DNA of 64,000 nucleotides from contig OZ024741.1 in assembly GCA_964016885.1 (NCBI GenBank), forward strand, positions 199,826,001 through 199,890,000, in the 5' to 3' direction. The translations under genes were made by a program, and so were the position numbers. Under the pieces are notes generated by a model. That model saw only the letters and a list, made by a program, of their open reading frames with translations, did not search any database and had not been told where the DNA came from. This DNA is from Eledone cirrhosa (Eukaryota). Below are positions 7,416 through 56,990 of this stretch, one piece after another (the stretch's first letter is position 1; each line of letters starts with the position of its first letter).

Positions 7416-7487
7416 CTCACCTGTCCATAAGACAGCTCGAACAGTTCTTTTAGGTCGAAGATTCAACTCATGGAGAATAGTTAGAGC
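7416..7487 (-). CDS. CPQ: Carboxypeptidase Q coding exon (72 nt, phase 0-0)
   Basis: ctttctag|GCT...GAG|gtaggt. ALTILHELNLRPKRTVRAVLWTGE; ends on the first Glu of the catalytic EE pair. Confidence 0.95.
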
Positions 7488-7722
7488 CTAGAAAGTAATA
7501 TATAAACCATAATAATATAACGTGTGTGTGTGTGTGTGTGTGTGTTTTGAATTTGTAAGTTAGAAACATCAATGTTGTTTGATTATGAAAAATAATTTAA
7601 GTTGGGCACAAAACAAACCTTGGAGATGGAAAAAATATGTACAACATCGCTCAGGGTTTGTATGCATAACTTATACTATTTTACATAGTCAAACAATGTT
7701 GATGCATCTAACTTTCAAATTT

Positions 7723-7945
7723 TAATCCTATAGCATTTAAACCGGCCATATCCAGCCAGAACTCTCTCCCCTCTTTCTGTTCAAACTGGGTATATTTGGC
7801 TGCTCATAGCTACATTAAAGTATTGTTCTCAAAATAAATAATATCAAAATTTCGTAGATTCAATATCATGTGAGATAATTATGTAAGATAATTACTATGA
7901 AAATACAATACTAAATATAGAATAATGTAAATGCTAAAGAGTTAA
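7723..7945. mobile_element. TTAA-flanked MITE copy
   Basis: ttaatcctatagcattta...taaatgctaaagagttaa terminal inverted repeats. Confidence 0.75.
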
Positions 7946-8370
7946 ACTTCCTATTGCTCAATGGTTCTAAAAATAGATTATTTATATACATACACACACA
8001 CATATATTCCCCCATTTTCTATTTTTTTTATTTTCTAGCCTATTTATTTCTACTCTCTTGACAAAGGAGTAACATCCGATACATTGGACTTCTTTTCTTT
8101 CTTTCATCCAAAACGGAACCTTATAACACTAATTGTTTTTGTAACTCTGTGTTTGTCATTATTTTATATTATATAAATATATAACTATCTATATATTACT
8201 AAAACTCTGTGATTGCTTGCTTGCTTGTCTGTAATGTAATACAGCCAAAAGAGCACATGATGGGAAAATACTTTGAAAGGAAGTTGACCCTGAAATGGGA
8301 ATACAAATGGAATAAAACAAGTTTCGTGTATATCCCGAGATATGGGGTTTATCTGGGTACCTTCATAAAT

Positions 8371-8373
<3 letters not shown>

Positions 8374-8448
<75 letters not shown>
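8374..8448. repeat. (GA)n microsatellite
   Basis: Long near-perfect GA run. Confidence 0.97.
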
Positions 8449-8452
<4 letters not shown>

Positions 8453-8550
8453 GAGATAGTGGTTGTGAGAGAGTAGATTGAAAGAGAGAGAGGAGACAGA
8501 GAAAGAGAATGGAAGAGAGAGCTGGTGGTGTTGTTGTGTATATATAAATG

Positions 8551-8592
8551 TGAGTGTGTGTCTATGACCAGTGTATATAGATCACAGACACC

Positions 8593-8632
<40 letters not shown>

Positions 8633-8674
8633 GGTGTCTGTGATCTATATACACTGGTCATAGACACACACTCA
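8551..8674. repeat. Perfect 46-bp inverted repeat around a (TA)n spacer
   Basis: 8551-8596 is the exact reverse complement of 8629-8674. Confidence 0.95.
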
Positions 8675-9090
8675 TATATATATATGTATACACACACACA
8701 CACATTTATATATATACACATACGTATATGTATGGGCCTTCCAGTGTCATTTCACATTATATACATGTCTGTGTATGTTTTAATTATTCAAAAATTATTT
8801 TGAAGTGAACGTGACCCAACAGGTCAGGGGTGGTCTAGTATCTATATAAATATACATATCTATATCTATAAGTATATGTATCATATTTAATAAAGAAATG
8901 GCTTCAACAGGACTAAAGCTGTTTCATGAAATCATCAGGAATATCAGGTGGCACAGTAAGTCAAGTTTCCTAATGGTTGGGGGATGATAGTAGTGAAGAG
9001 GGCTTATTTTAGGGAGCAGATATCAAGTAGTGGATTCGAGGATGTAGGGAGGAGTTGTGGTAAAAGTGGATAATTTCAAAAGATAGGATT

Positions 9091-9167
<77 letters not shown>

Positions 9168-9301
9168 GAGGTTATATTTAATTTGTTGGGATTCAACAAG
9201 CTTAAACATTTTTTTTATAACTGATATAAAGCACTCAACAGTTTAGTCGAGTAAATATACAATATATTAACAATTGGAAACTATATTTATAAAACCATAT
9301 T

Positions 9302-9367
9302 TATTCTATTATACATATTTCAAGGGACACCAAGGCAAATTATGGTGTGCTTTCATCAGATAAAATA
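9302..9367 (-). ncRNA. Type I hammerhead ribozyme motif, sense to the CPQ pre-mRNA
   Basis: Minus strand: tattttat CTGATGA aagcacacca-taatttgcct-tggtgtccctt GAAA tatgta TA atagaata. 8-bp stem I (one G.U), bulged stem II, very short stem III, intact core. Confidence 0.75.
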
Positions 9368-9549
9368 TAATACAGATTAGTTTTATAAATAAATATTGAC
9401 ATACCCTGAAAAAAAGACAACCTTAATGGTTGGAGCTTCCTGGATAGTATATATATATATATATGTATGTGTATATATATATATATGAGTGTGTGTGAGT
9501 CCCAGACTCAATCAGGATTAACCAGAGTAAGTAAGGTACTCAATACATT

Positions 9550-9720
9550 TGTAGAGGGTATACAACAACATTTAGTATAGAAATGGCTTCTACAGGACTA
9601 GAACTGTTTCATTCAATGAAATCATTAGGAAAAGTAACTTTTCCTGATGATTTTGTTTGAATGAAACAGTTCTAGTCTTGTAGAAGCCATTTCTATATTA
9701 AATTTTGTTATATCTATACA
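9550..9720. repeat. Fold-back inverted repeat (~80-bp arms) whose arms carry a minimal hammerhead-like motif
   Basis: tatagaaatggcttctacaggactagaactgtttcattcaa...aggaaaagt / acttttcct...gaatgaaacagttctagtcttgtagaagccatttctata. A further copy of the arm lies at about 8894-8942. Confidence 0.85.
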
Positions 9721-9979
9721 TATAAAACTGTTGTTGTCTGTGTGTGTGTCCTCATTTTTGCAAAGTCTATACAAATCCACATTTCTACTCCGATTGACTT
9801 CAAACTTGCATTTATATATTCCTTGCGGTCTAAAGATACTAACTGCAGCTTTTTCTGTTGTTAAAGGGGTGTTAGGCGCCGGTTATCGATCTCCGTCGAG
9901 CCCTTATAATATCTGTCTGTATGTCTAGCTGTCTGCATAACGACATTCTGACGAACACATCATTGCTGACGTATTATCT

Positions 9980-10008
9980 TCGCTACATTCACACACACAC
10001 ACACACAC

Positions 10009-10039
<31 letters not shown>

Positions 10040-10192
10040 CATATATACATACACATATACATATATATATATATGTACATATACAAACACATATACACAT
10101 ATATAGATATACACATATATAAATATACACATAAAAATATATGTATATATATACACACACATACACACACATATATATATATATATATACAT

Positions 10193-10224
<32 letters not shown>

Positions 10225-10257
10225 GCATAAATACACACACACATATATATATATGTA

Positions 10258-10299
<42 letters not shown>

Positions 10300-10300
10300 T
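9980..10300. repeat. Compound (CA)n/(TA)n microsatellite
   Basis: Direct reading; source of several spurious YI/CV-rich ORFs. Confidence 0.97.
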
Positions 10301-10590
10301 ACATTGTAGGTTGCTTTAACCCATCTTATTATTAAAAAAACTTCTTGCCAATAAACATTAACCCTTTGTGCGCCATTCATCTAACTGTAGACCAACAAAT
10401 ACCAAGTAAATGGAGCGTTGACAAGAACGATGGCAAATGAATCTTCGAGGTAAGCAGTTTCCTCCCGAGCTGTTAGTTCACGCAGGATTCTCTGCTACAC
10501 CTTTTCGTAATAATACCGAACAACGTACTGCTGGTCACTCCTTCCTCCAAAAGCCGTACAAAGCATCTCTCTCTGTCTATATATATATAT

Positions 10591-11335
10591 AGTTATTTTT
10601 CCTAAATCTTTCGTTAACTACTTTTCCCATCTTGACGTTATAGTCGCATATATGTTATAGAATGCCGTTAGCTTCTTGCTAAAACAATCTCTATACCTCT
10701 CATTTATATTTATACTCGGATTCTTTTCCTAGAGTGCTTAAACTATCTGTGACTAATCCCGGTTTTTTTCATAAAAACTGTGATAATTATTGCTATTTTG
10801 CTGAACTCCTTTGTAGAGTTTTTTTCAGAATGTATTTGACTGCTATTTCTTGTAAATAAACATTCACTTCCATCCTGACGTCACTAGCCCCGTTTTTTCC
10901 TCATGTGCTTTTTCATAAATACACATGAAGGCGAACTAACCAGTTTTAGAACTCCCTTTTTCGGATTATATTACTGTGAGAGCCCTGGTTTCTGTTGAGC
11001 TCTGCTGATGAATGAAATCCAACCGTGACCATCTCCACTGAAAGTTTTCATGAAATAGTCTTTTAAGACTATACAGAGCATTTGATGTTATTCCAAATTG
11101 AAGGATAAGTGTTTCAAACTTTATTTTATCATGAGTTAGGTCTATAGATTTTTCCCTGGATTTTACTAAATTCTGTGGATGAATTTATATCCTGATTCTC
11201 TTTTGAGATGAGTTTGAGTTATTTTTCCTAAATCTTTCGTTAACTACTTTTCCCATCTTGACGTTATAGTCGCATATATGTTATAGAATGCCGTTAGCTT
11301 CTTGCTAAAACAATCTCTACACCTCTCATTTATAT
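10591..11335 (+). mobile_element. Retrozyme-like non-coding element: 626-nt unit plus 119-bp terminal direct repeat, inserted in (TA)n
   Basis: 10591-10709 equals 11217-11335 with one mismatch. No ORF of 60 aa or more in the track. Internal hammerhead; TA runs on both sides. Confidence 0.8.
10999..11079 (+). ncRNA. Type I hammerhead ribozyme (intact core)
   Basis: gctctg CTGATGA atgaaa-[28 nt]-tttcat GAAA tagtct-ttta-agacta TA cagagc. Three perfect 6-bp stems; predicted cleavage after A11073. Confidence 0.9.
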
Positions 11336-12391
11336 ATATATATATATATTTGTTATAAGAATATATTAAAGTTTAAGCAAAGAATCGCTGCTTTCAACAT
11401 TAACGGGATCTTCTGAAACTAAAAAATTCAATCTGTGACCGCAGAAGTAAATATTTCGAGAAACGTTGCAATCGAAGGAAAACAGGAAGACAATATTTTG
11501 GTTCGTGAAGACGTTCCCTAGTAATGAACGGAAAAAAAAGCGAGGATAATACGTCGTTATGTGGACTGAGAAGAACAATTTCATGCAAAGACAAGACCAA
11601 GTTTATGGTATAAATGGAGTCGTTAGACTAATATTCTATTTAAAATAACCGAATGATTTCCAGCCCCGGAGTTTAAGAATGATGTAAATAAAATTGAAAA
11701 CGAAAATGACAGAGGTTATTAAAATAGTAAAAGTAAATAGTGAAGATTTAGGCCAGTACATACGTATGGCCCGACGGACATACACATACAAATACATACA
11801 CACACACAAACACACACACAGACACACACACACACACACACACACGTGTGTGTGTGTGTAAACCTTATGCATTTCTACAGTATTTTCACCAAACTTAAGA
11901 CATAGGTTACATATGTACTCCGGATGGTCATGGGCACTTTCATTTTTCCAGATATTGATAATAGCCCCCCCCCCCCCCCCCCCCCGGCAGATAACCCCTT
12001 TAACCACTTTAACCACTTCTTTGGAGTCGACTGAAGCACTGCAGTGCATTGCAACAAAACGTCATAACTTCTAGAGTTCGCAACCGATTTTCACAAAACC
12101 TGACATATGGGCTACATTTGTTCTATAGATGAATGTGAACTCTCAGAATTGGCACATATTGAGTAGGGGACCCTTGGGGGCAGGAACCCCCTTTTGGAAA
12201 AAGCCGATGATTTTGTAAAAGTATAGTTTTCGAAGCAGCACTGAAGTATTGACATAAATGGTATACACAACTGCTATTTAATACCCGAACAACGCCGGGT
12301 ACCTCTGCTAGTATATATATATATATATATACATGATGTCTCACCCTTGCAAGCAGCGAAAAGCGAACGTAAAATGATGATGATGATGATG

Positions 12392-13785
12392 GACTCTCCC
12401 GTCGATTCGACGTATGAGGGTTCAACAGTTTTTTCAGTTTATTGTTTTATGTTTATGTCTCAAATGGCACTTCAATCCAGCTGCTGATTTACACATCAAT
12501 CTGCATTTGGTACAGGTGACAGGATCTTGAATAGAGCAGGCTCGAATGCCTGACTGGACTCTGGTGTCAGATCTTATCTCACAGAGATGGGCTAAACGAA
12601 ATTTCACAAAGTTCTTCATACCTTCGTGGCAGACGGTCCTCCATCTTTTACGGTTGGCGGCATATAGCTTCAAACGAAGAAGGAGGTATGCTGACAGACT
12701 TAAGATTGTACTTCAGTTTGTCCTTATATTGGAGTAGTGGTCTACCCATACTATACACTCCATCCTGGAGCTGACTGTACCACAGTACCTTAGACACCCG
12801 TAGGACATGACCATCCCATCTGAGTTGGGATTGCACCAGAAATGACTTAATCTCACCAATGTTGCACCTTGTGACAGTTTTGCATTGGAAACTCTGTCAG
12901 AAAGTGCATATCCACAAACAGAACAAAGACGGTGTGTTTGTGGAATACATCAAGCTTATGTATGTGAGTGCGGTAAAGTGTCCATGACTCTGAGCCATAT
13001 AAGAGTGTTGTCAGTATCACTGGGATATACCTTTGGCACTCCATATGCAGTGATGTAGTTTGCCAAAAGCATCAGCTGCCTTGGAGATGCAATTAACAAT
13101 CTCATCATCCAGGGATGCAGAGTGATTCACCTTGCTGTCAAAGTAAGTAAAGGAGCTCACATATTTCAGATCCTTGCCATCAATAGTGATGGGTGCAAGA
13201 GGATGCCCTTGATCTGGCCACATCTGTTTAACACCTCCTGCATACCTGGGGATGGCTTTGTTTGATGTACCACCTCAGTCTTCTTGATGCTGATTATTAG
13301 ACCAAAAGCTTTACAGGCAAGCGAAAAGCAGTTCATCAATTCTTGTGCCTCTTTGAGGGATGTTGCAATAAGTGCAGCATCATCAGCAAAGAGTAAATCG
13401 TGTGAGTATTTTAGCCAAAGCGCTGATGGTTAAATAGCCCACCTGATGTACAGAACTTAAATCTGACACCAGTGTCAAAATCGCCAAATACACGCTGGAG
13501 CATTACAGAAAAGAACAAAGCAAAGAAGACAGGAGCTATGACACAACCCTGCTTCGTACCATTTGTAACAGCAAAGGGTTCAGAGCATTCACCATCTGAC
13601 ATAATTGATGCTTCCATGCCCTCTTTGAAGGATATGATGATATTTAGCATATTATCAGGTATGCCAAGCTTTTTCAGGATTTTCCAAAAAGCTTTGCAAT
13701 TGACAGTGCCGAAGGCTTTAGTCAGGTCAACAAAAACCATAAACAGGTCTTGGTTCCTTTCACAAACCTTCTCTGTGACCTGTTG
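12392..13785 (-). mobile_element. RTE-clade (BovB-like) LINE, 5'-truncated and decayed
   Basis: FVDLTKAF, GTKQGCVIAPVFF, LLYGSESW, QLRWDGHV, C-terminal CTKCRLMCKSAAGLKCHLRHKH zinc finger. Confidence 0.88.
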
Positions 13786-14194
13786 AAGGCCATAATATCT
13801 ACCCAGCAATTCTTTCCTGAGACATTCTAACCACATGACCATAGTATCAGAGTAGTGATCTTTCAATTCAGAGAAGTAGGGACTCTCTGATCTCAGAGCT
13901 ACACACTCTATCAAGTAATGTTACTCCAAAGACCCTTAATTCTTTTTAAGGAAAACGTTGCTGTTATATTAAAAAATCTTTTAAAAACGGTAAAATATAC
14001 TATTAATCCTATTTAAATTATCATACATTATAGTTCGATAAATAGATAAAAATTAGAGAGTGAATTAATAAAACAATTAATTTACAGTGACATAAATATG
14101 TAAATGTTTTTAAAAAAATACAGCATAAGTTTTTATAAACACATGAGTTCTGTTTGATGTTGGTTTTAATTAATCTGGACTGAAGGCAATTATT

Positions 14195-14305
14195 ATATAT
14201 ATATATATATACAGATAGATAAATATAAATATATATATACATATATATATACATATAAATATATACATACATATATATAGACACACATACACACACACAC
14301 AGACG

Positions 14306-14355
<50 letters not shown>

Positions 14356-14356
14356 A

Positions 14357-14403
<47 letters not shown>

Positions 14404-14435
14404 CAAATATATATACACATATATATATATATACA
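14195..14435. repeat. Compound (TA)n/(CA)n microsatellite
   Basis: Direct reading. Confidence 0.95.
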
Positions 14436-15094
14436 GATATTAGGAATAAGAGGGATCAGATGTTGTTTACTCGAGAGAAGACTACATTGGTACGGTCACG
14501 TGCTGCGCATGAAAGACGGCAGGTGTATAAAAAAGTGCAGGGCAATAAAAATAGACAGTAGCCATGGAGTAGGCAGACCCAGAAAAACCTGGGACGACTT
14601 GATAAATTCCAACCTCACACACTTACACCTCTCCAAGACAATGTCACTGGACCGAGATCTTTGGCACTACACAGTAATACAGAAGACCCGCCTTGCCTAA
14701 GTACAAAGCGACACCTACTACAGTCAGTAGGCACCTCTAACAAAATACACCCCCGTCCCACTACCCCCACCCCATCCACACCACCCCTTTCGATGTAAAG
14801 TTATGTTGGTACCACAACATCCAGTCCGAAATAAATGAGGTTGTGTAGGTGTCACGACAAAAAACACACAGTCCACGCTGTTATGTGGCCGTGTAGGTAA
14901 CACGATAAAAACCTCCCAGTCCACACTGTAAACGTGGTTGGTGTTAGGAAGGGCATCCAGCCATAGAAAACCCGCCAGACAGTCCTATACGAGCAAGACA
15001 ACCAATCTTGCCTCAAGCGGGAAAATTCCCGCCCAAACCCATGCAAGCGTGGAAGATGGACGTTAAACGATGATGATGATGATGATGATGATGA
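14436..15094 (+). mobile_element. RTE LINE 3' end with long 3'UTR and (GAT)n tail
   Basis: [14 protein letters not shown]...GRPRKTW; 3'UTR ggaagggcatccagcc...gttaaacgatgatgat. Nearly identical copy at 25833-26372. Confidence 0.88.
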
Positions 15095-15689
15095 TAGAAA
15101 TATACATACATAAGTGTCCATTTTTCCATGTTTGCATGGGTTAGATGTGTCGTCCATGCCAAGAGGCAAATCTGGCCTGAGTTGGCCATGTCGCACCTTG
15201 CTCTGGTGAGGACTGTAAATTTGGCAGGGTTTTTTACAGCGGGATGCCCTTCCTAACACTAACCACATTTACAGTGTGGAACTGGATGGCTCTGTTGTGA
15301 GGAGGGACAGGCCAGTTGACCGCACCGAACCCATTTCACAATGGAACCAAAGTTTTGGAGCCCAGTACTGGATAGCACTGATATGAGGAGCCTAACCCAT
15401 CTCACAGCATAACCACAGTTGGCCTCGCTATGTAGAGGGACAGGTAGTTGGCTGCGCCAAACCCTTCTCACAGTGGCATCCCAGTTTCAGAGCCAGGCAA
15501 TCTCCATGCGACATACTCGTCTCAATACAAAACCACATGAGAGCCTAGGACTGGATGACACTACGATTGGAGGGAGAGGCCAGTTGGCCAAACCAAACCC
15601 TTCACACAGCGGACCCTCAGTTCAGCTGTTGGAATGCCACGTGACTCACCTGCTCACACCAGAACCCCAGTTTCGGAACTGGTGACTCT

Positions 15690-16390
15690 TCACTTGTCGA
15701 ATCCTTCTCAATACAAAATCACATTTTACTTCTGGATGACTGCGATGAATACCTGTGACCTTCATGACCTGGTCAACTAACTTAATGCCTCTATAGTTTT
15801 CTCTATCTAGAGTGTCACCTTCGCTCTTGTAGCAGTTAACGATGATGCTGCTACACCAGTCATTTGGTATGACCCTATTCTGTATTACTTGGTTTACTAT
15901 ACAGATGACTATGATATGACCTATCATCTCAGATGCTTTCAACATCTCAGCAACTATCCCTGAAGGTCCAGCTGCCTTGCCTGTCTTCATATCTTTGATT
16001 GGCTTACTTACTATACTACTACTAACTTCGCACAGCTGGTCCCTCTGTTGGATCAACTTGGGGAAAACTATCTTTATCCCATTCATTCTCCTCATTTAAT
16101 AATCTTTCATAGTGGAACTTCCATGCTGCCTTCTTATCAATATCAGTGAGGGGAAGTATACCATTATCATTACGGACACACTTCTCCCCAACAATATCAC
16201 AATTTTCCTTGACACATTGCCTCACAATCCTGAACACCTCACGTTTATGGTCCTCGCGTTGTAGAACATACTTGAACCTTCTATTCTCTGCTTCCCTTCT
16301 TGCAAAGTACACCTGTTGCCTAGCTTTTCTCCTACCTACCTGATAGTGTTCTCTACTTTTCCCATCCCGCCATTCTTTCCAAGCCCACCA
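15690..16390 (-). mobile_element. RTE LINE internal fragment
   Basis: AWKEW...DIVGEKCVRND...MKTGKAAGPSGIVAEMLKAS...NYRGIKLVDQVMKV; same family as 795-3810 and 60480-63790. Confidence 0.88.
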
Positions 16391-16391
16391 G

Positions 16392-16424
<33 letters not shown>

Positions 16425-16487
16425 TACATATGTGTATATATATCAAAGTTATAGTAAGAGAAAATACAACCAAAGTACTTGAAAAAG

Positions 16488-16612
16488 TGTTTGTTTGTTT
16501 ACAAATTGTTTCGAAGGATATGATCACAATACTATAAATATTTGAATCAATAGGTTTGCGTGTTATTAAGAGCAAATCATAACCCTAACCTCTTCTTCGG
16601 AACATACAAACA
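16488..16612 (-). ncRNA. Variant/degenerate type I hammerhead-like motif with long stem II insertion
   Basis: tgtttgtatgtt CCGAAGA agagg...atccttc GAAA caatttg TA aacaaacaaaca. 12-bp stem I with one mismatch; core has U4>C. Confidence 0.4.
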
Positions 16613-17621
16613 AATTTCAAAATATATGTCACTTAGGGACGAATTAAAACAAGCAGTTTTTATCAGAAAAAAACCCCCCAGAAAGGTTTGTTTTCTGATG
16701 ACACAGGTTCCAGATCTCTGGTGTTATGCAGCATAAGACCCGCCTCTCCATGTGCACAGGTTGAAGCATGAATCTTGCATGTACTGCCTTCCCATCCCCT
16801 CTCCATACACCCCCACCCTTCATTCATGTCTCTCCCTCTCTCCTATTCCATGAACCTGTCATGTCCTAATACTTCACCCACACCCTAACATTCCACCCTT
16901 TATCCAAGTTCCTACACCCCCAACTTTCATCAGATAAATATCCCACTCTAGATCTACCTCACCAATCCCCATGAACCTCCTACCCCTACCCCTACCCCAC
17001 ACTCTAAAGTGGTTGTGTAGGTGTTACAATAAAAAGCACCCAATACACACTGAAAATATGGTTGGCATTAAGAAGGGCATCCAGCCATAGAAACCAAGCC
17101 AGAAGCAGTTCTGTGTGTGTGAGACATGGTCATCTGATTTGGCTTATCTCACAACAGGACAACTCGTCTAACCCATGCTAGTGTGGAAAAATGGATGTTA
17201 CATAGTGATGGCGGTGATGATGATGAGGATAAAGGGTTTAATCAGAAACCTCAGTTCCTTTCTTCTGAAATAATCTGATTTTGCTATTTGTCATTTTGCC
17301 ACTCTCTTATGTATCTTGGGTAAATTGATCCAGAAAATATGGGTCCCAACTGAGTTGACAACTTTACAGATCATTAAGTTTGATACAGAACTTGGAGTTA
17401 TCTGAGTATTAACTTGATGATTCAAATTAACCTGATGATGTTAACAATGAATCAAAACAAATGTATATACAGTGACAAAAATGTGAAACACACATACACA
17501 CACACAGGCATGTACGTGCATACACACACACACACAAATAAAGCATTTAGTTAAACTTACTGTTTATTAAAAATTAATTGTTAAAAAATAAATTGAAGCA
17601 TAAAAGTTTTGAGAGAAATAC

Positions 17622-17708
17622 CTGCCATGAAATAAAAGCACCCCCTCCATCATCCATGGCTCCTTGTCCAACATCCCAGCTGTCAATATGGCCACTGACT
17701 AAAACAAT
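17622..17708 (-). CDS. CPQ: Carboxypeptidase Q coding exon (87 nt, phase 0-0), zinc-ligand His and Asp
   Basis: ctaaatag|ATT...CAG|gtattt. [29 protein letters not shown]; M28 HxDS and DDxxG motifs. Confidence 0.97.
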
Positions 17709-33841: not shown

Positions 33842-34706
33842 CATATATATTTCAATAAGCTATTGTGTGTAGTTGATGAGTCAAGAGCAGATTACTCTTA
33901 CACATGACCTCTTAAGTGCAGGGCCCAATAAGGAGCAGTTGGCCCATCTGGGTTAAGTTCAGCCCTTTATGTATGTGTGTTGGAACTCTATTGATTCTGA
34001 CAATGATTGTTCCAGTTGTTTGATCAATGCTAACAGCCTACTCATAAAATTAACATGCAAATAGTTGAACATTCCACAGATTCAACATGATACAATGTGT
34101 GACAAAGTCTTAATTAATTAATTAGTTTATTTATTTTATTTTAATCTATTTCTTATATAATAAATTTTTGGTATCGGTTATAATATTCACAGTTGTTGCA
34201 GACCTGTGGACAATGTGGGGTTGGGAGGAGATGGATGTTGCTACTATTATAGCAGCTGCTCTCTACTACAGCTACTGATAGAGAGGGGAGGGAGAAGGGC
34301 TACCAGCCATTTTCATTACTTCCTAAACTGACCAACACTTGAGTCAAAATTCTTAGTGTCATACAGGGGCTGGCTGTTGAAGAAACAACACCACACATTC
34401 GGCCGGCCCCTGTATAATGAAAAGAAATGTTTTTTCAGGGAAATTATTGGATTTTTCCAAATTTAAAGGTTTTTTAGGAACTTTCAATGTTTATTTTAGG
34501 TTTCGCTGTCTGAAGAGCTAAGGCTATCATAACCAATAATCCTCAGTGAAATATGTATAGCAGAGTTATGAATAATTTTTTGGTATCGGTTATAATATTC
34601 ACACTTGTGAATATTATAACCGATAAACAACTGAATATGGCCTCCGGTCTTTTATTAATATATATATATATATGTATATAAATAGGGAGACACAAAGCAA
34701 GCTTTG

Positions 34707-34850: not shown

Positions 34851-36100
34851 CTAATTATATACATATGTATATATTTGTTTATATTTTATCACAGCTATTG
34901 TAGCTTTCTATATTGGACAGATACCATACTTGAGATTTGTTGGCTATTTCTTCCTTTCTTTCCCCTTCTTTCATTCTTTCTCTCTTCCCTTCCTCTTACT
35001 GCTTTTTTTTTTCTTTCCGCCTCTCTTCTCCTACCTGCTGATCTTACTCATCACTTCCGCTTACTATCATCTCCACACAAAAAGCCATTGTTGTTGCCTT
35101 TTCTTACAGGAACCTGAGGCCGAGTGGATGCACTTTATTTTTCACTCTCTCTCTGACCTGTCTGTCTGTTTATCTAATCTGTTCGTTCGCCACCAAAACA
35201 TCATAAAAACAGAGTATTTACTTCTTCATGTACGAGCCATCTATCTTACGTGGTATTTTTAGTTAAATTGTTGAAACCACATGCGGTCTAAAAACTGATG
35301 AGAGTATTTAAATGTTTATGTGATCTTCCCTCCTCCATTTTTCTCCTATCACTTCTATGGACCCACGCACTTCCAGCCACTTGATCCTATGGAGGAGAGG
35401 AAGGAGAATGTGGGAGGTGAGGAAAAAGAACTCTGTGCCACTTACAGTGAGGCCATAGAGGAGGTGCTGATGGAGAAGATCAGGAGTGTGGAGAGAGCAC
35501 TTGACAGGTGTAAATGTAAAGAAAGCTGGACGATCATCAACAAGATCACTGGGAGGAAGATAGGGAGATCAAGTCAGATCCGGGGAACAGGGCCCGAGGA
35601 TAAGAAGACGAAGTGGCTGGACCATTTTAAGACTCTACTAGGAGAGACACCTTCCACAACCCAGAACATATATATATAAAGGGTTATTGTAGATTGATGA
35701 TGGTGTACTTGCCATCACTGACGCTGATAAGAAGGTAGCTTGGAAGTGTCACTACGAAAGGCTACTGTCTGTCTGTTTATCCCAATTGAAACTAATGCTA
35801 GGCGATGTGGTAACTAATGCCTTATATTGGCAGTTAAAGGGTTTTATTCCTTTTTCTTTCTCTCCTAATAATACAAACATATCTAAATTCTCCATAGCGT
35901 CTAAAATAACGGTTTTTCAATCATATACCTCATTTACATATTCATTAGCATACTCATCCTAACAATTTTAAATCCACTATCCAAGTAATACTTCAACTGA
36001 TAAGGTATGTTCCTTGGCTATGTCAACATTTATAAAACACACTTTGTATTTTACCTGATGAAAGCGTACCAAAGTTTTTGGTACCCTTCAAATATATATA

Positions 36101-37403
36101 CAGGGTGTGGACGATATTTGTTCACAATTTTCAACTGCTAATTTTATGCAAATTTTTTTTACTTCCGTTGTCACTCTTGTCTTCATAAAAACAGTGACTA
36201 TATTCCCATTATTTATTTTCAGAATAATTTATTATGAATAATTTTGAACCTCCAAATTTGTGGAAGAGACACAGAGTTCTTCTTGGAATCCGCACCAGGA
36301 GGACAAATAAGGAAATTTCAGACTTTCTCAGCATCAGCAGAAGAATGGTGGAAAAGGTCAGAAAGAAATTGGAAGATTCAGGATTCGACTACGAAGCAAC
36401 ATCACAGAGGAAAACACATGATCGACGATCTGACGCCTACAGAATGCTTGAGTTCGTCGCTGAAGTTCAGGATATCATCAACAATGAACCTAGCAAGTCG
36501 ATGCATGTCATTGCAAGGGAGAAAGGCGTGGATGAAAAGCTCATTAGGCTGGTGGTACATGAAGACATTCGCTACGTTTCATACAAGATGAGGAAAGGAC
36601 AATTTCTGTAAAAGGCGATGCAAGAAAAGCGACTGAAGCACGCAAAGAAGCTGATCAACAAGTTGAAACACCCACTGGAGCCAGACATGCTGTGGTTTTT
36701 CTCCGACGAGAAAAACTTCTGCCAAGACCAGAAGATCAACTCCCAGAACAACAGGTGGCTCGCTGTCTCATCCAAAGACGTGCCCAGAGTCATGCAGACA
36801 GTTTCCAGCGACAACATTGGTATTAGGTGTCGTCAGCAGTCAAGGTGATGTCATACCACCTCACTTCTTCCCGGAGGGCCTCAAACTGAACACCGATGGC
36901 TACATCCGCGTTCTGAGTGAGGTAGTAAATCCCTGGATCAACCAGGTAGCTGCAAGTAGGTCGTATGTGTGCCAGCAAGACTCAGACCCTGCCATACCAG
37001 CCGAAAGACCCAAGCCTGGCAGTCAGAGAACTTCGTCGACCACACTTCACCTGACATCTGGCCTCCCACCTCGCCTGACTGCAACCCCCTCCACTTCTTT
37101 GTGTGGGGTGCAGTGGAACGAGACACCAACAGATCTAGCTGCAATACAAAAGACAATCTGAAGGCCAGGATCACAAGTGCCTTTAGGGCCTAAGTCGGGG
37201 GACAGTGACGAAGGCTTGTAGCTGGTTCCGAGGCCACCTTGAGGCCGCCATCAAAGCCAATGGCGGGTTTATTGAGTGAGATCGAAAGAACAAGTCATGA
37301 AGACAAACTGACCCAAGTTTGATAAATATATCTTAAAAAATAAAACTACTGTGTTATTTTTTCCTAGACAGTAATTTTGCGAACAAATATCGTCTGCACC
37401 CTG
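36101..37403 (+). mobile_element. Tc1/mariner-superfamily DD37D (maT-type) transposon, full length, transposase pseudogenised
   Basis: TIRs cagggtgtggacgatatttgttcac / gcgaacaaatatcgtctgcaccctg with TA duplication. FFSDEKNF, QQDS, WPPTSPDCNPL(H); 37-residue spacing after frameshift repair; internal stops and frameshifts. Confidence 0.93.
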
Positions 37404-37944
37404 TAATAGAATAAATACGGTTTTATAAATATAGTTTCCAAATATTTAATATCATTGAATATTTACCCCAGAAAACTGTCAAGTGCTCTGAATCAGTTAT
37501 AAACATTTATATTTGTTGAATTACCAACAAATTGAATATCCCTTCTGCTTACACACACACACACATATATATATATATATCCCATATACACACATATATA
37601 TTTTATACATACATACACACACACACATATATACATACACACACATACATATACATACATATACACATACACACATATATATATTCTCCACACATTTTAT
37701 ATACACATACATCATCATCATCATCATCAACGTTTAACGTCCGTGTTCCACGCTTGCATGGGTTTGGACGGGGGTTTTCCCACTTGAGGCAAGAGTGATT
37801 GTCTTGCTCGCATAGGACTATCTGGCGGGTTTTCTACAGCTGGATGCCCTTCCTAACACCAACCACATTTACAGTGTGGGGCTGGGAGGTTTTTACCGTG
37901 TTGCCTACACGGCCACATTACAGCGTGGAATATACACATATATA

Positions 37945-39330
37945 TTCCATATAAACACATTTTATACCACGACTTAGGAGTTGAAGCTGTTGACTTCTGG
38001 ATTACAAAACATCCAGACTACATTTCAGAGAGATTTCCCAAAAAATTTATTTTGGAAGGACTCGTACTGGAGAATTTATTTTGGAAGGAACTAGTACTGG
38101 AGAACAACTACTTCCTTTTTGATAACAAACTATATTTACAAATAAAAAGAACGGCAATGGGGACCAAAGTGGCCCCAACATATGCAACACTCGTTATGGG
38201 CCACCTGGAGGCAAAATTACATTCCAAACTGCAGGAAACATTCAGTTGTGACTTCGCCACTACATTAATCACAACTGGAAATGCTACCTAGATGACTGCT
38301 TCATCTTCTGGAATAGAAGCCAAGAAGACCTTCAAAGATTCCATTCCATAATAAACAATCTTCACAAAGAAATAAAATTTACCATGGAATGTAATAAAAA
38401 GGAACTACCGTTTCTGGATATCCTTATCATTAAGGAAGGGGAAAATATCAAAACGGACTTGTTTTACAAACCAACAGACACACACCAATACTTGAATTTC
38501 CGCTCAGCACAACCATCACATACCAAAAGGAACATTCCTTCTAACATGGCAAGACGCATCTGCACCATAGTGACACACCACACACTACAGGAAAAAAGAT
38601 TATATGAATTAAAAGAGTTCATTAAGAGACAAGAATATCAGGTGAACCCCATCAACACAGCCATCTCCAAAGCCCAGAACATCCCAGTGACAACACTGAG
38701 AAAAACAAAGCAACAAAATAGAATGGAAAAAACAGTTATCCCTTTTGTCATCACTCACAATCCAAGGAACTTCAACATTGTAAAAGCCGCCAAACAATAT
38801 CTCCCGATTCTCCAGCAGTCCCCCAAAATGAATGCACTTATAAAAGATGCACAAATTATATATAGTAGACGCCAAGCACCCAACCTAAAGAAACTGCTTA
38901 CCAAGTCAAAATTTACGTCTAATAATGAAACAATGCAAGTTAAGAAATGTGGGGACCCTCGATGCAGAACTTGTAACTCATTGAAGAGGGTGGATAAATC
39001 TCCTTTAAAAACAACCAGTCTTTCACAGTTAATGCAAACATGAATTGCAAAACAAAAAACTTGATTTACTGTGCAACCTGCCCACAATGTAAAGAATACT
39101 ACATTGGTGAAACCGGAATGGGTCTACATGACAGAGTTTGAGTACATAAACAACAAATTAGAGACCCCTCTGTCAGAAACACCACATGCAGTGAACACTT
39201 CGCAACATGCGGAAAGGGAAATTTCACAATTTTCCCCTTCTTTAAGATATGGTCGGACAACGAACACTTCCGAAAATATAAAGAAGAATTCTTTATTAGA
39301 AAATACAAACCATTACTGAACACAAAAAGT
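37945..39330 (+). mobile_element. Penelope-like element (RT plus GIY-YIG endonuclease), 5'-truncated and frameshifted
   Basis: TAMGTKVAPTYATLVMG, YLDDCF, LPFLDI, YKPTDTHQYL, KCGDPRCRTC, LIYCATCPQCKEYYIGETG. Confidence 0.92.
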
Positions 39331-56139: not shown

Positions 56140-56990
56140 ATTATCATTGTCATCATTGTCATTAACATAATCACTAATGCTGCAACCAGCATTAACCCAT
56201 GTCCACTCCTCCTCCTCATCCCCATCATCATCATCACCAACACCACCATCATCACTATTGCCATTATCATCACCACCATCACAATTGTCATCATCATCAC
56301 CACCACTACCATGATCATTATCGCCATCACCTTCATCATCAGTATCAACACCACAACCACCACCACTACCATCATCACCACCAACACTACCATCATCACT
56401 ATTGTCATTATCATCACCACCACCACTACCATGATCTCTATCGTCATCACCACCATCAGTATCACCATCACTACCATCATCATCACCAACACTACCATCA
56501 TCACTATCGCCATTATCACCACTACCATCACTATCGTCAACACCATCACCACCATCACCACTACCATGATCACTATCATCATCACCATCACCGCCATCAT
56601 CACCATCACCACTAACATGATCACTATCGTCATCACCATCATCACCATCACTACCATCACCACTACCATGATCACTATCGTCATCACCATCACCACCATC
56701 ACCACCACCATGATCACCATCGTCATCACCATCACCACCATCACCACTACCATGATCACTATCGTCATCACCATCACCGCCATCATCACCATCACCACTA
56801 CCATGATCACTATCGTCATCACCATCATCACCATCACCACTACCATGATCACTATCGTCATCACCATCACCATCACCACCATCACCACTACCATGATCAC
56901 TATCGTCATCACCATCATCACCATCACCACTACCATGATCACTATCGTCATCACCATCATCACCATCACCACTACCATGTATTATCATGT
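56140..56990. repeat. (CAT/CAC)-derived trinucleotide array with higher-order 33-45-bp units
   Basis: Recurrent catcaccactaccatgatcactatcgtcatcac. Confidence 0.95.

What the first reader, a model, noticed from the sequence alone, without database searches (positions are those of the whole stretch)
9165..9447. Second hammerhead family lies in the sense strand of the CPQ pre-mRNA
Seen: an intact core with 8-bp stem I at 9302-9367 (minus), predicted cut between 9310 and 9309, inside a ~280-bp unit bracketed by (TA)n arrays. It lies in the 10-kb intron between the HxDS exon and the WTGE exon. Stem III (uaugua) is tiny and near-palindromic, as in dimer-dependent type I motifs (known). Inference: CPQ transcription produces this RNA, so it could cut the nascent intron or release element RNA.
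Basis: partly seen in the sequence, partly recalled or inferred. Interest (0 to 1): 0.7.

Follow-up and report, generated by a model that had tools for sequence, protein, structure and literature searches.

The report
Hammerhead in truncated Hydra-Penelope retrotransposon end
The self-cutting-RNA motif in this gene's intron is real but ordinary: it is the broken-off end of a jumping gene with tens of thousands of copies in this genome, and as a lone copy it is predicted to cut the host transcript poorly or not at all.

Summary
Observation confirmed: an intact type I hammerhead lies at 9302-9367 (minus strand, predicted cut 9310/9309), sense to a carboxypeptidase Q gene, in a 10,134-nt intron. 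It is not CPQ-specific. The 283-bp unit is the 5'-truncated pseudo-LTR end of a Hydra-clade Penelope-like retrotransposon: longer copies run into an RT plus GIY-YIG-type ORF with the clade's motifs. The genome holds 46,681 intact-core hammerheads of this design, one per 64 kb, so a sense copy somewhere in this gene has about a 34% chance. Across subfamilies the core is conserved (0.993 vs 0.847, position 7 free); after insertion it decays like its flanks (p=0.76, low power). Stem III is predicted not to form in a monomer, and no same-family sense partner lies in the mapped coding span, so efficient cutting of CPQ pre-mRNA is unlikely; this is untested. Side lead: two preferred 3' ends, each an AT word just before a small hairpin. 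The scan has reported Hydra-clade ends and this hairpin before, on other DNA of this genome.

The parts
9165..9447 (-). 5'-truncated pseudo-LTR end (283 bp) of a Hydra-clade Penelope-like retrotransposon; long 3'-end type
   Evidence: 93-96% identical dispersed copies; longer copies continue upstream through an AT-rich 3' UTR into an RT-linker-EN ORF, and downstream into the 5' UTR and ATG of the next unit
9302..9367 (-). Type I hammerhead ribozyme motif (stem I 8 bp, long bulged stem II, 2-bp stem III with self-complementary AUAUGUAU, triplet AUA)
9353..9359 (-). Core box CUGAUGA (C3-A9); position 7 is free across subfamilies
   Evidence: N7 = U 29, A 7, G 5, C 5 among 46 intact copies
9310..9321 (-). 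GAAA box, stem III and cleavage triplet; predicted cut between 9310 and 9309
   Evidence: AUA in 46 of 46 intact copies; UAUGUA 24, UAUAUA 21, other 1
9255..9260 (-). Alternative (short) 3'-end site of the family: last unique base G9260, then TATAT that matches the (TA)n target
   Evidence: 42 of 60 sampled copies end here
9232..9253 (-). Small hairpin (ACUC...GAGU) just 3' of the short end; a second version (GCUC...GAGC) follows the long end in full elements and is absent from this copy
   Evidence: z -3.1 in the window copy, weaker in L082; paired in 16 of 18 long copies; GCTC/GAGC in 4 of 4 elements examined
9399..9405 (-). Conserved splice-donor-like word GGTATGT upstream of the hammerhead (function untested)
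   Evidence: GGTA(T/C)GT exact in 37 of 53 copies scored
9094..9164 (.). (TA)35 target array at the element's 3' end
9448..9486 (.). (TA)19 target array at the element's 5' junction
17622..17708 (-). CPQ exon ([11 protein letters not shown]...ISWQ), upstream of the host intron
   Evidence: (PF04389, E 7e-6)
7416..7487 (-). CPQ exon (ALTILHEL...WTGE), downstream of the host intron
7488..17621 (-). 10,134-nt GT-AG host intron; predicted cut lies 8.3 kb from the donor and 1.8 kb from the acceptor

Best explanation
The 283-bp unit is a 5'-truncated pseudo-LTR end of a Hydra-clade Penelope-like retrotransposon, likely inserted recently and at random into a (TA)n tract of a CPQ intron, and its hammerhead is a passenger predicted to cut poorly or not at all as a lone copy. 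Shown: membership of a dispersed family linked to an RT plus GIY-YIG-type ORF with Hydra motifs; about 47,000 like hammerheads; core and stems conserved between subfamilies; two fixed 3' ends at AT words. Inferred: the element's endonuclease cut the (TA)n tract, the TA-ended DNA primed reverse transcription inside an uncleaved element RNA at the downstream AUAUAU site, and copying stopped after 283 nt at another short TA match. The ribozyme was kept functional in the master elements, where two copies about 3.9 kb apart could pair their palindromic stem III or be helped by the element's protein. This solo copy has no partner, so CPQ transcription makes the RNA but splicing would normally finish unaffected.
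For: Family: 2,778 candidates, 40 scored, 93-96% identity; 2,884 exact matches to a subfamily 20-mer; 45,024 to a downstream 24-mer; 46,681 intact-core motifs; reversed controls 0 each time. Link to ORF: 13 of 30 nearest copies extend upstream, leading to RT/EN ORFs. Of 12 RT-bearing regions, 11 have the unit downstream of the ORF and the twelfth has it upstream; 7 of these 12 were picked by the RT match alone. L080 holds hammerheads at 1564 and 5494 around an ATG at 1807. Motifs RWRAF, DKT, KDHK, CNCRNKSNC, CSLC..E..N..CKH match the Hydra definition and by eye the Hydra-1_Obim protein. Selection in the lineage: core 0.993 vs non-core 0.847 in 48 spanning copies; 93.3% of cells paired, 45 double changes vs 18.4 +/- 6.1 shuffled. 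Neutral decay after insertion: singletons 3 of 360 core vs 57 of 7,474 other sites, p=0.76; 14 of 60 copies lack an intact core in register. Poor monomer fold. Chance of a sense copy 0.34 for the gene, 0.076 for this intron. Literature: monomeric PLE minimal hammerheads showed no cleavage and dimers low cleavage (PMC4209133); the Poseidon PAc hammerhead did not cut without protein and uncut RNA was the insertion substrate (PMC11167929).
Against: No cleavage assay, and folding models ignore tertiary contacts. Stem I here is 8 bp and stem II long, more than many minimal motifs. PMC7761336 (passage) says most type I hammerheads of invertebrate genomes can form helix III and cleave as monomers. 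The window copy keeps every core base and all stem pairs. The neutral-decay test has only 3 core events and used copies chosen for likeness to the window copy. In one search the number of pairs with a double change (4) did not exceed shuffles (397 of 500), and copies are related, so those statistics are not independent. The 0.993 figure excludes 12 of 60 truncated or deleted copies. The first CPQ exon and the UTRs were not mapped, so a distant sense partner in the transcript is not excluded. Clade assignment rests on motifs and visual comparison, not a tree; the unit (about 3.9 kb) is longer than the usual Hydra size of under 3 kb.
Confidence: 0.88

Rival explanations
1. The solo hammerhead is conditionally active in the CPQ pre-mRNA. 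It would cut when the element's RT-EN protein binds the nearby tail hairpin, or when another family RNA supplies the palindromic stem III in trans, and so lower CPQ mRNA when the family is expressed.
For: All core bases and stems intact; the copy keeps one tail hairpin; protein-assisted cleavage is shown for PAc (PMC11167929); tens of thousands of potential partners.
Against: The stem III self-duplex is only about -2.2 kcal/mol and stem I is disfavoured in context. The acceptor is 1.8 kb downstream, so the time window is short (inference). PMC11167929 found no RNA-seq reads ending at the PAc cut site. Almost all inserted copies came from uncut RNA.
Confidence: 0.08
2. The copy has been domesticated as an intronic regulator of CPQ, like the ultraconserved amniote intronic hammerheads.
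For: Sense orientation and an intact core. Precedent cited in PMC7761336 (passage and reference list).
Against: The window copy differs from the majority of its 29 nearest copies at 7 substitutions in 283 nt, 4 of them shared with at most one other copy, so it is young. It is an ordinary truncation product, and a sense copy is expected by chance.
Confidence: 0.02
3. The unit is a stand-alone non-autonomous retrozyme monomer copied from a small circular RNA, not a truncated autonomous element.
For: Many copies are short and several begin near the same base; retrozymes are proposed PLE derivatives (bioRxiv 10.64898/2026.07.22.740005).
Against: No head-to-tail arrays of this unit among the 30 nearest copies; 5' ends vary, and 13 of 30 run on into the 3' UTR; unit ends do not coincide with the cut site, which lies mid-unit (position 138 of 283).
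Confidence: 0.04

Closest known systems
Hydra clade of C-terminal EN+ Penelope-like elements, including Hydra-1_Obim of Octopus bimaculoides (Craig et al. 2021, PMC8557442; read: passages, section 11, supplement part 2 and search passages)
   Same: RT then CxCx5C linker then GIY-YIG-type EN without CCHH; RW(K/R), DKT, CxxC and CxH motifs; (TA)n target; canonical hammerhead near the 3' end; truncated and inverted arms.
   Different: A different family: its hammerhead differs in sequence from the listed Hydra-1_Obim motif (8-bp AU-rich stem I, even palindromic stem III, A-U at 10.1-11.1). Unit about 3.9 kb with a long AT-rich 3' UTR vs under 3 kb; tail about 90 nt vs 30-40 bp; very high copy number.
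[quoted passage not shown]
   Same: Long helix II, small palindromic helix III, mostly dispersed single motifs from truncated PLEs, some in close opposite-strand pairs.
   Different: Helix I is longer (8 bp vs 4-5); the G10.1-C11.1 pair they report as highly conserved is mostly A-U here and unpaired in 9 of 45 distinct rows.
Poseidon PAc of Anolis (Frangieh et al. 2024, PMC11167929; read: parts 1-2 of 4)
   Same: Two internal reverse-transcription start sites downstream of the hammerhead define a tail; both target strands are extended; uncut RNA is the template.
   Different: PAc starts in an AC-rich stem-loop inside the ORF with no homology to the target. Here both ends lie in the 5' UTR at AT words with 2-6 nt of match to (TA)n, each just before a small hairpin.
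Conserved intronic ribozymes of vertebrates (amniote intronic hammerheads; CPEB3 HDV-like ribozyme; seen only as passages in PMC7761336 and a search listing of PMC10274809)
   Same: A ribozyme motif in the sense strand of a host intron.
   Different: Those are single, old, conserved and active as monomers (partly recalled); this is a young member of a family of tens of thousands with a dimer-type stem III.

Membership tests
Type I hammerhead ribozyme | Conserved core CUGANGA / GAAA / UH around a three-way junction, open at stem I | tested here: met
Type I hammerhead ribozyme | Stems kept by compensatory change | tested here: met
   93.3% paired, 45 double-change cells vs 18.4 shuffled, slid controls 37-53% paired; count of covarying pairs (4) not above shuffles; rows related
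Type I hammerhead ribozyme | Match to an Rfam hammerhead model | tested here: not met
   no hammerhead family at E<=1 (window) or E<=10 (unit); that these models miss minimal-stem-III motifs is my recollection
Type I hammerhead ribozyme | Self-cleavage activity | not testable with these tools
   folding predicts a poor monomer
Penelope-like element (EN+) | Single ORF with RT and C-terminal GIY-YIG-type endonuclease | tested here: met
   in longer copies (motifs IVY...YVGST; Pfam gave no hit); the ORF is absent from the window copy
Penelope-like element (EN+) | Hammerhead-bearing pLTRs in partial tandem; inverted 5' arm; optional tail | tested here: met
   L080 has two direct hammerheads 3,930 nt apart; 7 of 7 elements with both arms end at different sites
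Hydra clade | RWK motif and DKT in place of DKG | tested here: met
   RWRAF (K to R) and DKT in L080; compare
Hydra clade | CxCx5C linker; CxxC and CxH around conserved E and N; no CCHH | tested here: met
   CNCRNKSNC, CSLCVEE...N...CKH; one C only between IVY and YVG
Hydra clade | Insertion into (TA)n | tested here: met
   (27 of 30 continue with ATATA, one of them the element's own sequence)
Hydra clade | Length generally under 3 kb | tested here: not met
   period about 3.9 kb in L080; the paper gives this as a tendency, not a rule
Hydra clade | Phylogenetic placement of the RT | not tested
   no tree built; by-eye comparison with published Hydra proteins only
Non-LTR retrozyme | Head-to-tail tandem units each with a hammerhead | tested here: not met
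   single unit in the window; no tandem arrays among 30 nearest copies
Domesticated intronic ribozyme | Old, orthologously conserved single locus | not testable with these tools
   no relative genomes held; low divergence from sister copies argues against

The most novel reading that the evidence does not exclude
With about 47,000 intact dimer-type hammerheads in the genome, thousands of host introns carry a sense copy that is silent alone but is switched on in trans by the Hydra element's protein or RNA. Retrotransposon activation would then cut many nascent host transcripts, CPQ among them, and intact sense copies would be depleted from expressed introns.
Probability: 0.07. Interest if true: 0.7.

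Novelty: new member of a known kind. Interest (0 to 1): 0.17.

Why it matters
As it stands it matters little: a hammerhead in a cephalopod-type Hydra element is published (Hydra-1_Obim), and at one motif per 64 kb a sense intronic copy is expected in about a third of genes this size. Two things have some value. The family is a large natural dataset for asking whether intact sense hammerheads are selected against in expressed introns, which would measure in vivo activity of PLE hammerheads, an open question in the papers read. And its two 3' ends, each an AT word followed by a hairpin with a compensatory change, give a testable rule for where Hydra reverse transcription starts; other reports of this scan already carry that lead.

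Tried and rejected
Rfam scans gave only AT-rich miRNA-model noise and no hammerhead hit. Whole-unit folding is stable (z -3.15) but does not form the hammerhead. Pfam found nothing in four ORF pieces; 120 listed protein homologues (33-45% identity) carried no informative names. Sequencing runs: no RNA holder listed, so expression and cleavage could not be examined. DNA runs laid on the unit (4 of 7) only showed sister subfamilies with other stem II sequences. Insertion polymorphism (empty site) was not tested. Naiad/Chlamys rejected (EN is C-terminal, hammerhead canonical); Neptune and Nematis rejected on the CxCx5C linker and lack of CCHH; retrozyme rejected for want of tandem units. Pile-up of 5' ends at the cut site looked for and not found (at most L131, 1 of 60; four apparent starts near it are internal deletions). 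A possible 5'-UTR intron enclosing the hammerhead (donor-like word in 37 of 53, ATCAG|TT in 14 of 15) could not be tested without RNA. One fold (L080) used wrong coordinates and was ignored. Lunse et al. 2017 (PMC5785218) is not held; only its title was seen in a reference list. Four literature searches found no paper on this family or on a CPQ intronic hammerhead; bioRxiv supplements are closed and the library lacks most subscription papers. Scan look-ups by place (near) and by sequence returned nothing.

Full report
1. Observation. The minus strand at 9367-9302 reads as an intact type I hammerhead: 8-bp stem I, CUGAUGA, a long bulged stem II, GAAA, a 2-bp stem III closing AUGU, and triplet AUA, with the cut between 9310 and 9309. 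(TA)n arrays flank a 283-bp unit. The host gene is a carboxypeptidase Q: Pfam M28 hit, named CPQ homologues, and eleven colinear exon-like matches on the minus strand from 48780 to about 5 kb left of the window. The HIDSW and WTGE exons join in frame across a 10,134-nt GT-AG intron. The motif is therefore sense. It is not chance: 24 motifs in 464 kb against 0 in each of 10 shuffles. Rfam did not detect it.

2. What the unit is. A search of the own genome gave 2,778 candidates; the 40 scored were 93-96% identical apart from the self-match. Of the 30 loci fetched, 27 continue with ATATA at the same 3' base, 13 extend upstream beyond the window copy, and many have an adjacent inverted arm. Following the upstream extension led to reverse transcriptase and endonuclease reading frames. 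In 12 RT-bearing regions the unit lies downstream of the ORF in 11 and directly upstream of it in the twelfth; 7 of the 12 were chosen by the RT match alone. L080 has the full plan: unit, 5' UTR, ATG about 195 nt after the cut site, ORF, long AT-rich 3' UTR, unit again, with hammerheads 3,930 nt apart. The ORF carries RWRAF, DKT, KDHK, CNCRNKSNC, IVY...YVGST and CSLC..E..N..CKH with no CCHH. These are the features Craig et al. give for the Hydra clade, which targets (TA)n and carries canonical hammerheads (PMC8557442 section 11). Their supplement lists an Octopus member, Hydra-1_Obim, whose protein aligns by eye and whose hammerhead differs in sequence. No tree was built. The genome (3.0 Gb) is probably a cephalopod's; that is inference.

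3. Abundance. Exact matches: 2,884 for a subfamily 20-mer, 45,024 for a 24-mer downstream of the cut, and 46,681 for the intact-core design, each with 0 for the reversed control; two arms of one insertion count twice. That is one per 64 kb, giving about 0.34 chance of a sense copy in the 54-kb coding span and 0.076 in this intron under a uniform model.

4. Is the ribozyme under selection? I sampled 70 copies from the first 100 listed matches to the downstream 24-mer (the first 30, then 40 picked from the rest), so not by the core, and dropped 10 second arms. Of 60, 46 have an intact core; position 7, the free position of the hammerhead core, takes all four bases; stem III is UAUGUA or the perfect palindrome UAUAUA in 45 of 46. 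In the 48 copies that span the region, core columns average 0.993 conservation against 0.847 elsewhere (truncated and deleted copies excluded, rows related). On 45 distinct motifs, 93.3% of cells pair and 45 show double changes against 18.4 in shuffles, although the number of covarying pairs (4) is not above shuffles. So the master elements kept a working fold. Within the nearest subfamily, private changes hit core and flanks alike (3 of 360 vs 57 of 7,474, p=0.76; low power), as expected for neutral decay once inserted. The window copy has 7 substitutions against its sisters' majority, none in the core.

5. Would it cut CPQ pre-mRNA? Predicted monomer folding is poor: active fold -2.2 vs minimum -8.7 kcal/mol, stem III probability 0.00, stem I 0.28-0.52 in short constructs and 0.03 or less with 171-601 nt of context. 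These models omit tertiary contacts. The stem III octamer is self-complementary, the dimer design. In the mapped coding span the other family copy (35973-37551) and the other hammerheads (11005, 34510) are antisense; the nearest sense motif found upstream is over 75 kb beyond the first mapped exon, though the 5' exon was not mapped. Published PLE motifs did not cleave as monomers and cleaved weakly as dimers (PMC4209133); the PAc motif needed protein, and uncut RNA was the insertion template (PMC11167929). Against this, a review passage says most invertebrate type I motifs can cleave as monomers (PMC7761336). The genome agrees with low activity: at most 1 of 60 copies starts at the cut site, so templates were uncut or religated. 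One cut could not release a unit RNA. No RNA data bear on this locus.

6. How it likely inserted (inference). The family has two preferred 3' ends about 90 nt apart: 42 of 60 copies end at the short site and 18 at the long one. In 7 of 7 long elements with both a direct and an inverted arm, the arms use different sites, which fits priming from both cut strands. Each site is an AT word with 2-6 nt of match to (TA)n, at the head of one of two diverged 5'-UTR repeats, and is followed 8-10 nt later by a hairpin: ACUC/GAGU in 16 of 18 long copies, GCUC/GAGC in 4 of 4 full elements. I noticed the two repeats and AT words before consulting the scan's notes; the hairpin lead came from those notes and I then checked it. 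The window copy is one long-type arm, truncated after 283 nt, with no inverted partner.

7. Verdict. A real hammerhead of a known kind in a new family of a known clade; its place in CPQ is most likely incidental. Novelty: new member of a known kind. Interest 0.17. The bold reading, trans-activated cutting of many host introns, is not excluded but unlikely (0.07).

Noticed in passing
window 10590-11335 (+), hammerhead C3 at 11005: Second hammerhead with a 7-bp stem III (predicted able to fold as a monomer) between partial direct repeats at about 10590-10720 and 11218-11335; looks like another PLE pLTR, antisense to CPQ.
   Followed up: partly
window 34168-34640 (+), hammerhead C3 at 34510: Third hammerhead candidate with the same U-AUGU-A stem III, a 4-bp stem I and a short direct repeat (34168/34580); antisense to CPQ.
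   Followed up: partly
window 35973-36100 and 37404-37551 (+): An older copy of the same superfamily (core GAAA changed to CAAA) split at the TA of its cleavage triplet by a 1.3-kb insert with terminal inverted repeats and a mariner-like transposase fragment (label recalled).
   Followed up: partly
window 9399-9405 and about 9219 (-): Donor-like GGTA(T/C)GT upstream and ATCAG|TT downstream of the hammerhead are conserved across subfamilies; a 5'-UTR intron could enclose the whole ribozyme, and the words could act as cryptic splice sites in CPQ.
   Followed up: partly
window 38252-39040 (+): RT fragment resembling a Penelope-like element of another clade (YLDD, HQYL..SAQP).
   Followed up: no
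G000:C2:199626001-200090000: 24 hammerhead-like motifs of several families in 464 kb, often as close inverted pairs.
   Followed up: partly
window 8550-8675 and 9581-9694: Near-perfect inverted repeats (a fold-back around a TA array; a MITE-like element) flanking the finding.
   Followed up: no
window 56225-56979: Long CAT/CAC-rich degenerate tandem array, open in several frames.
   Followed up: no
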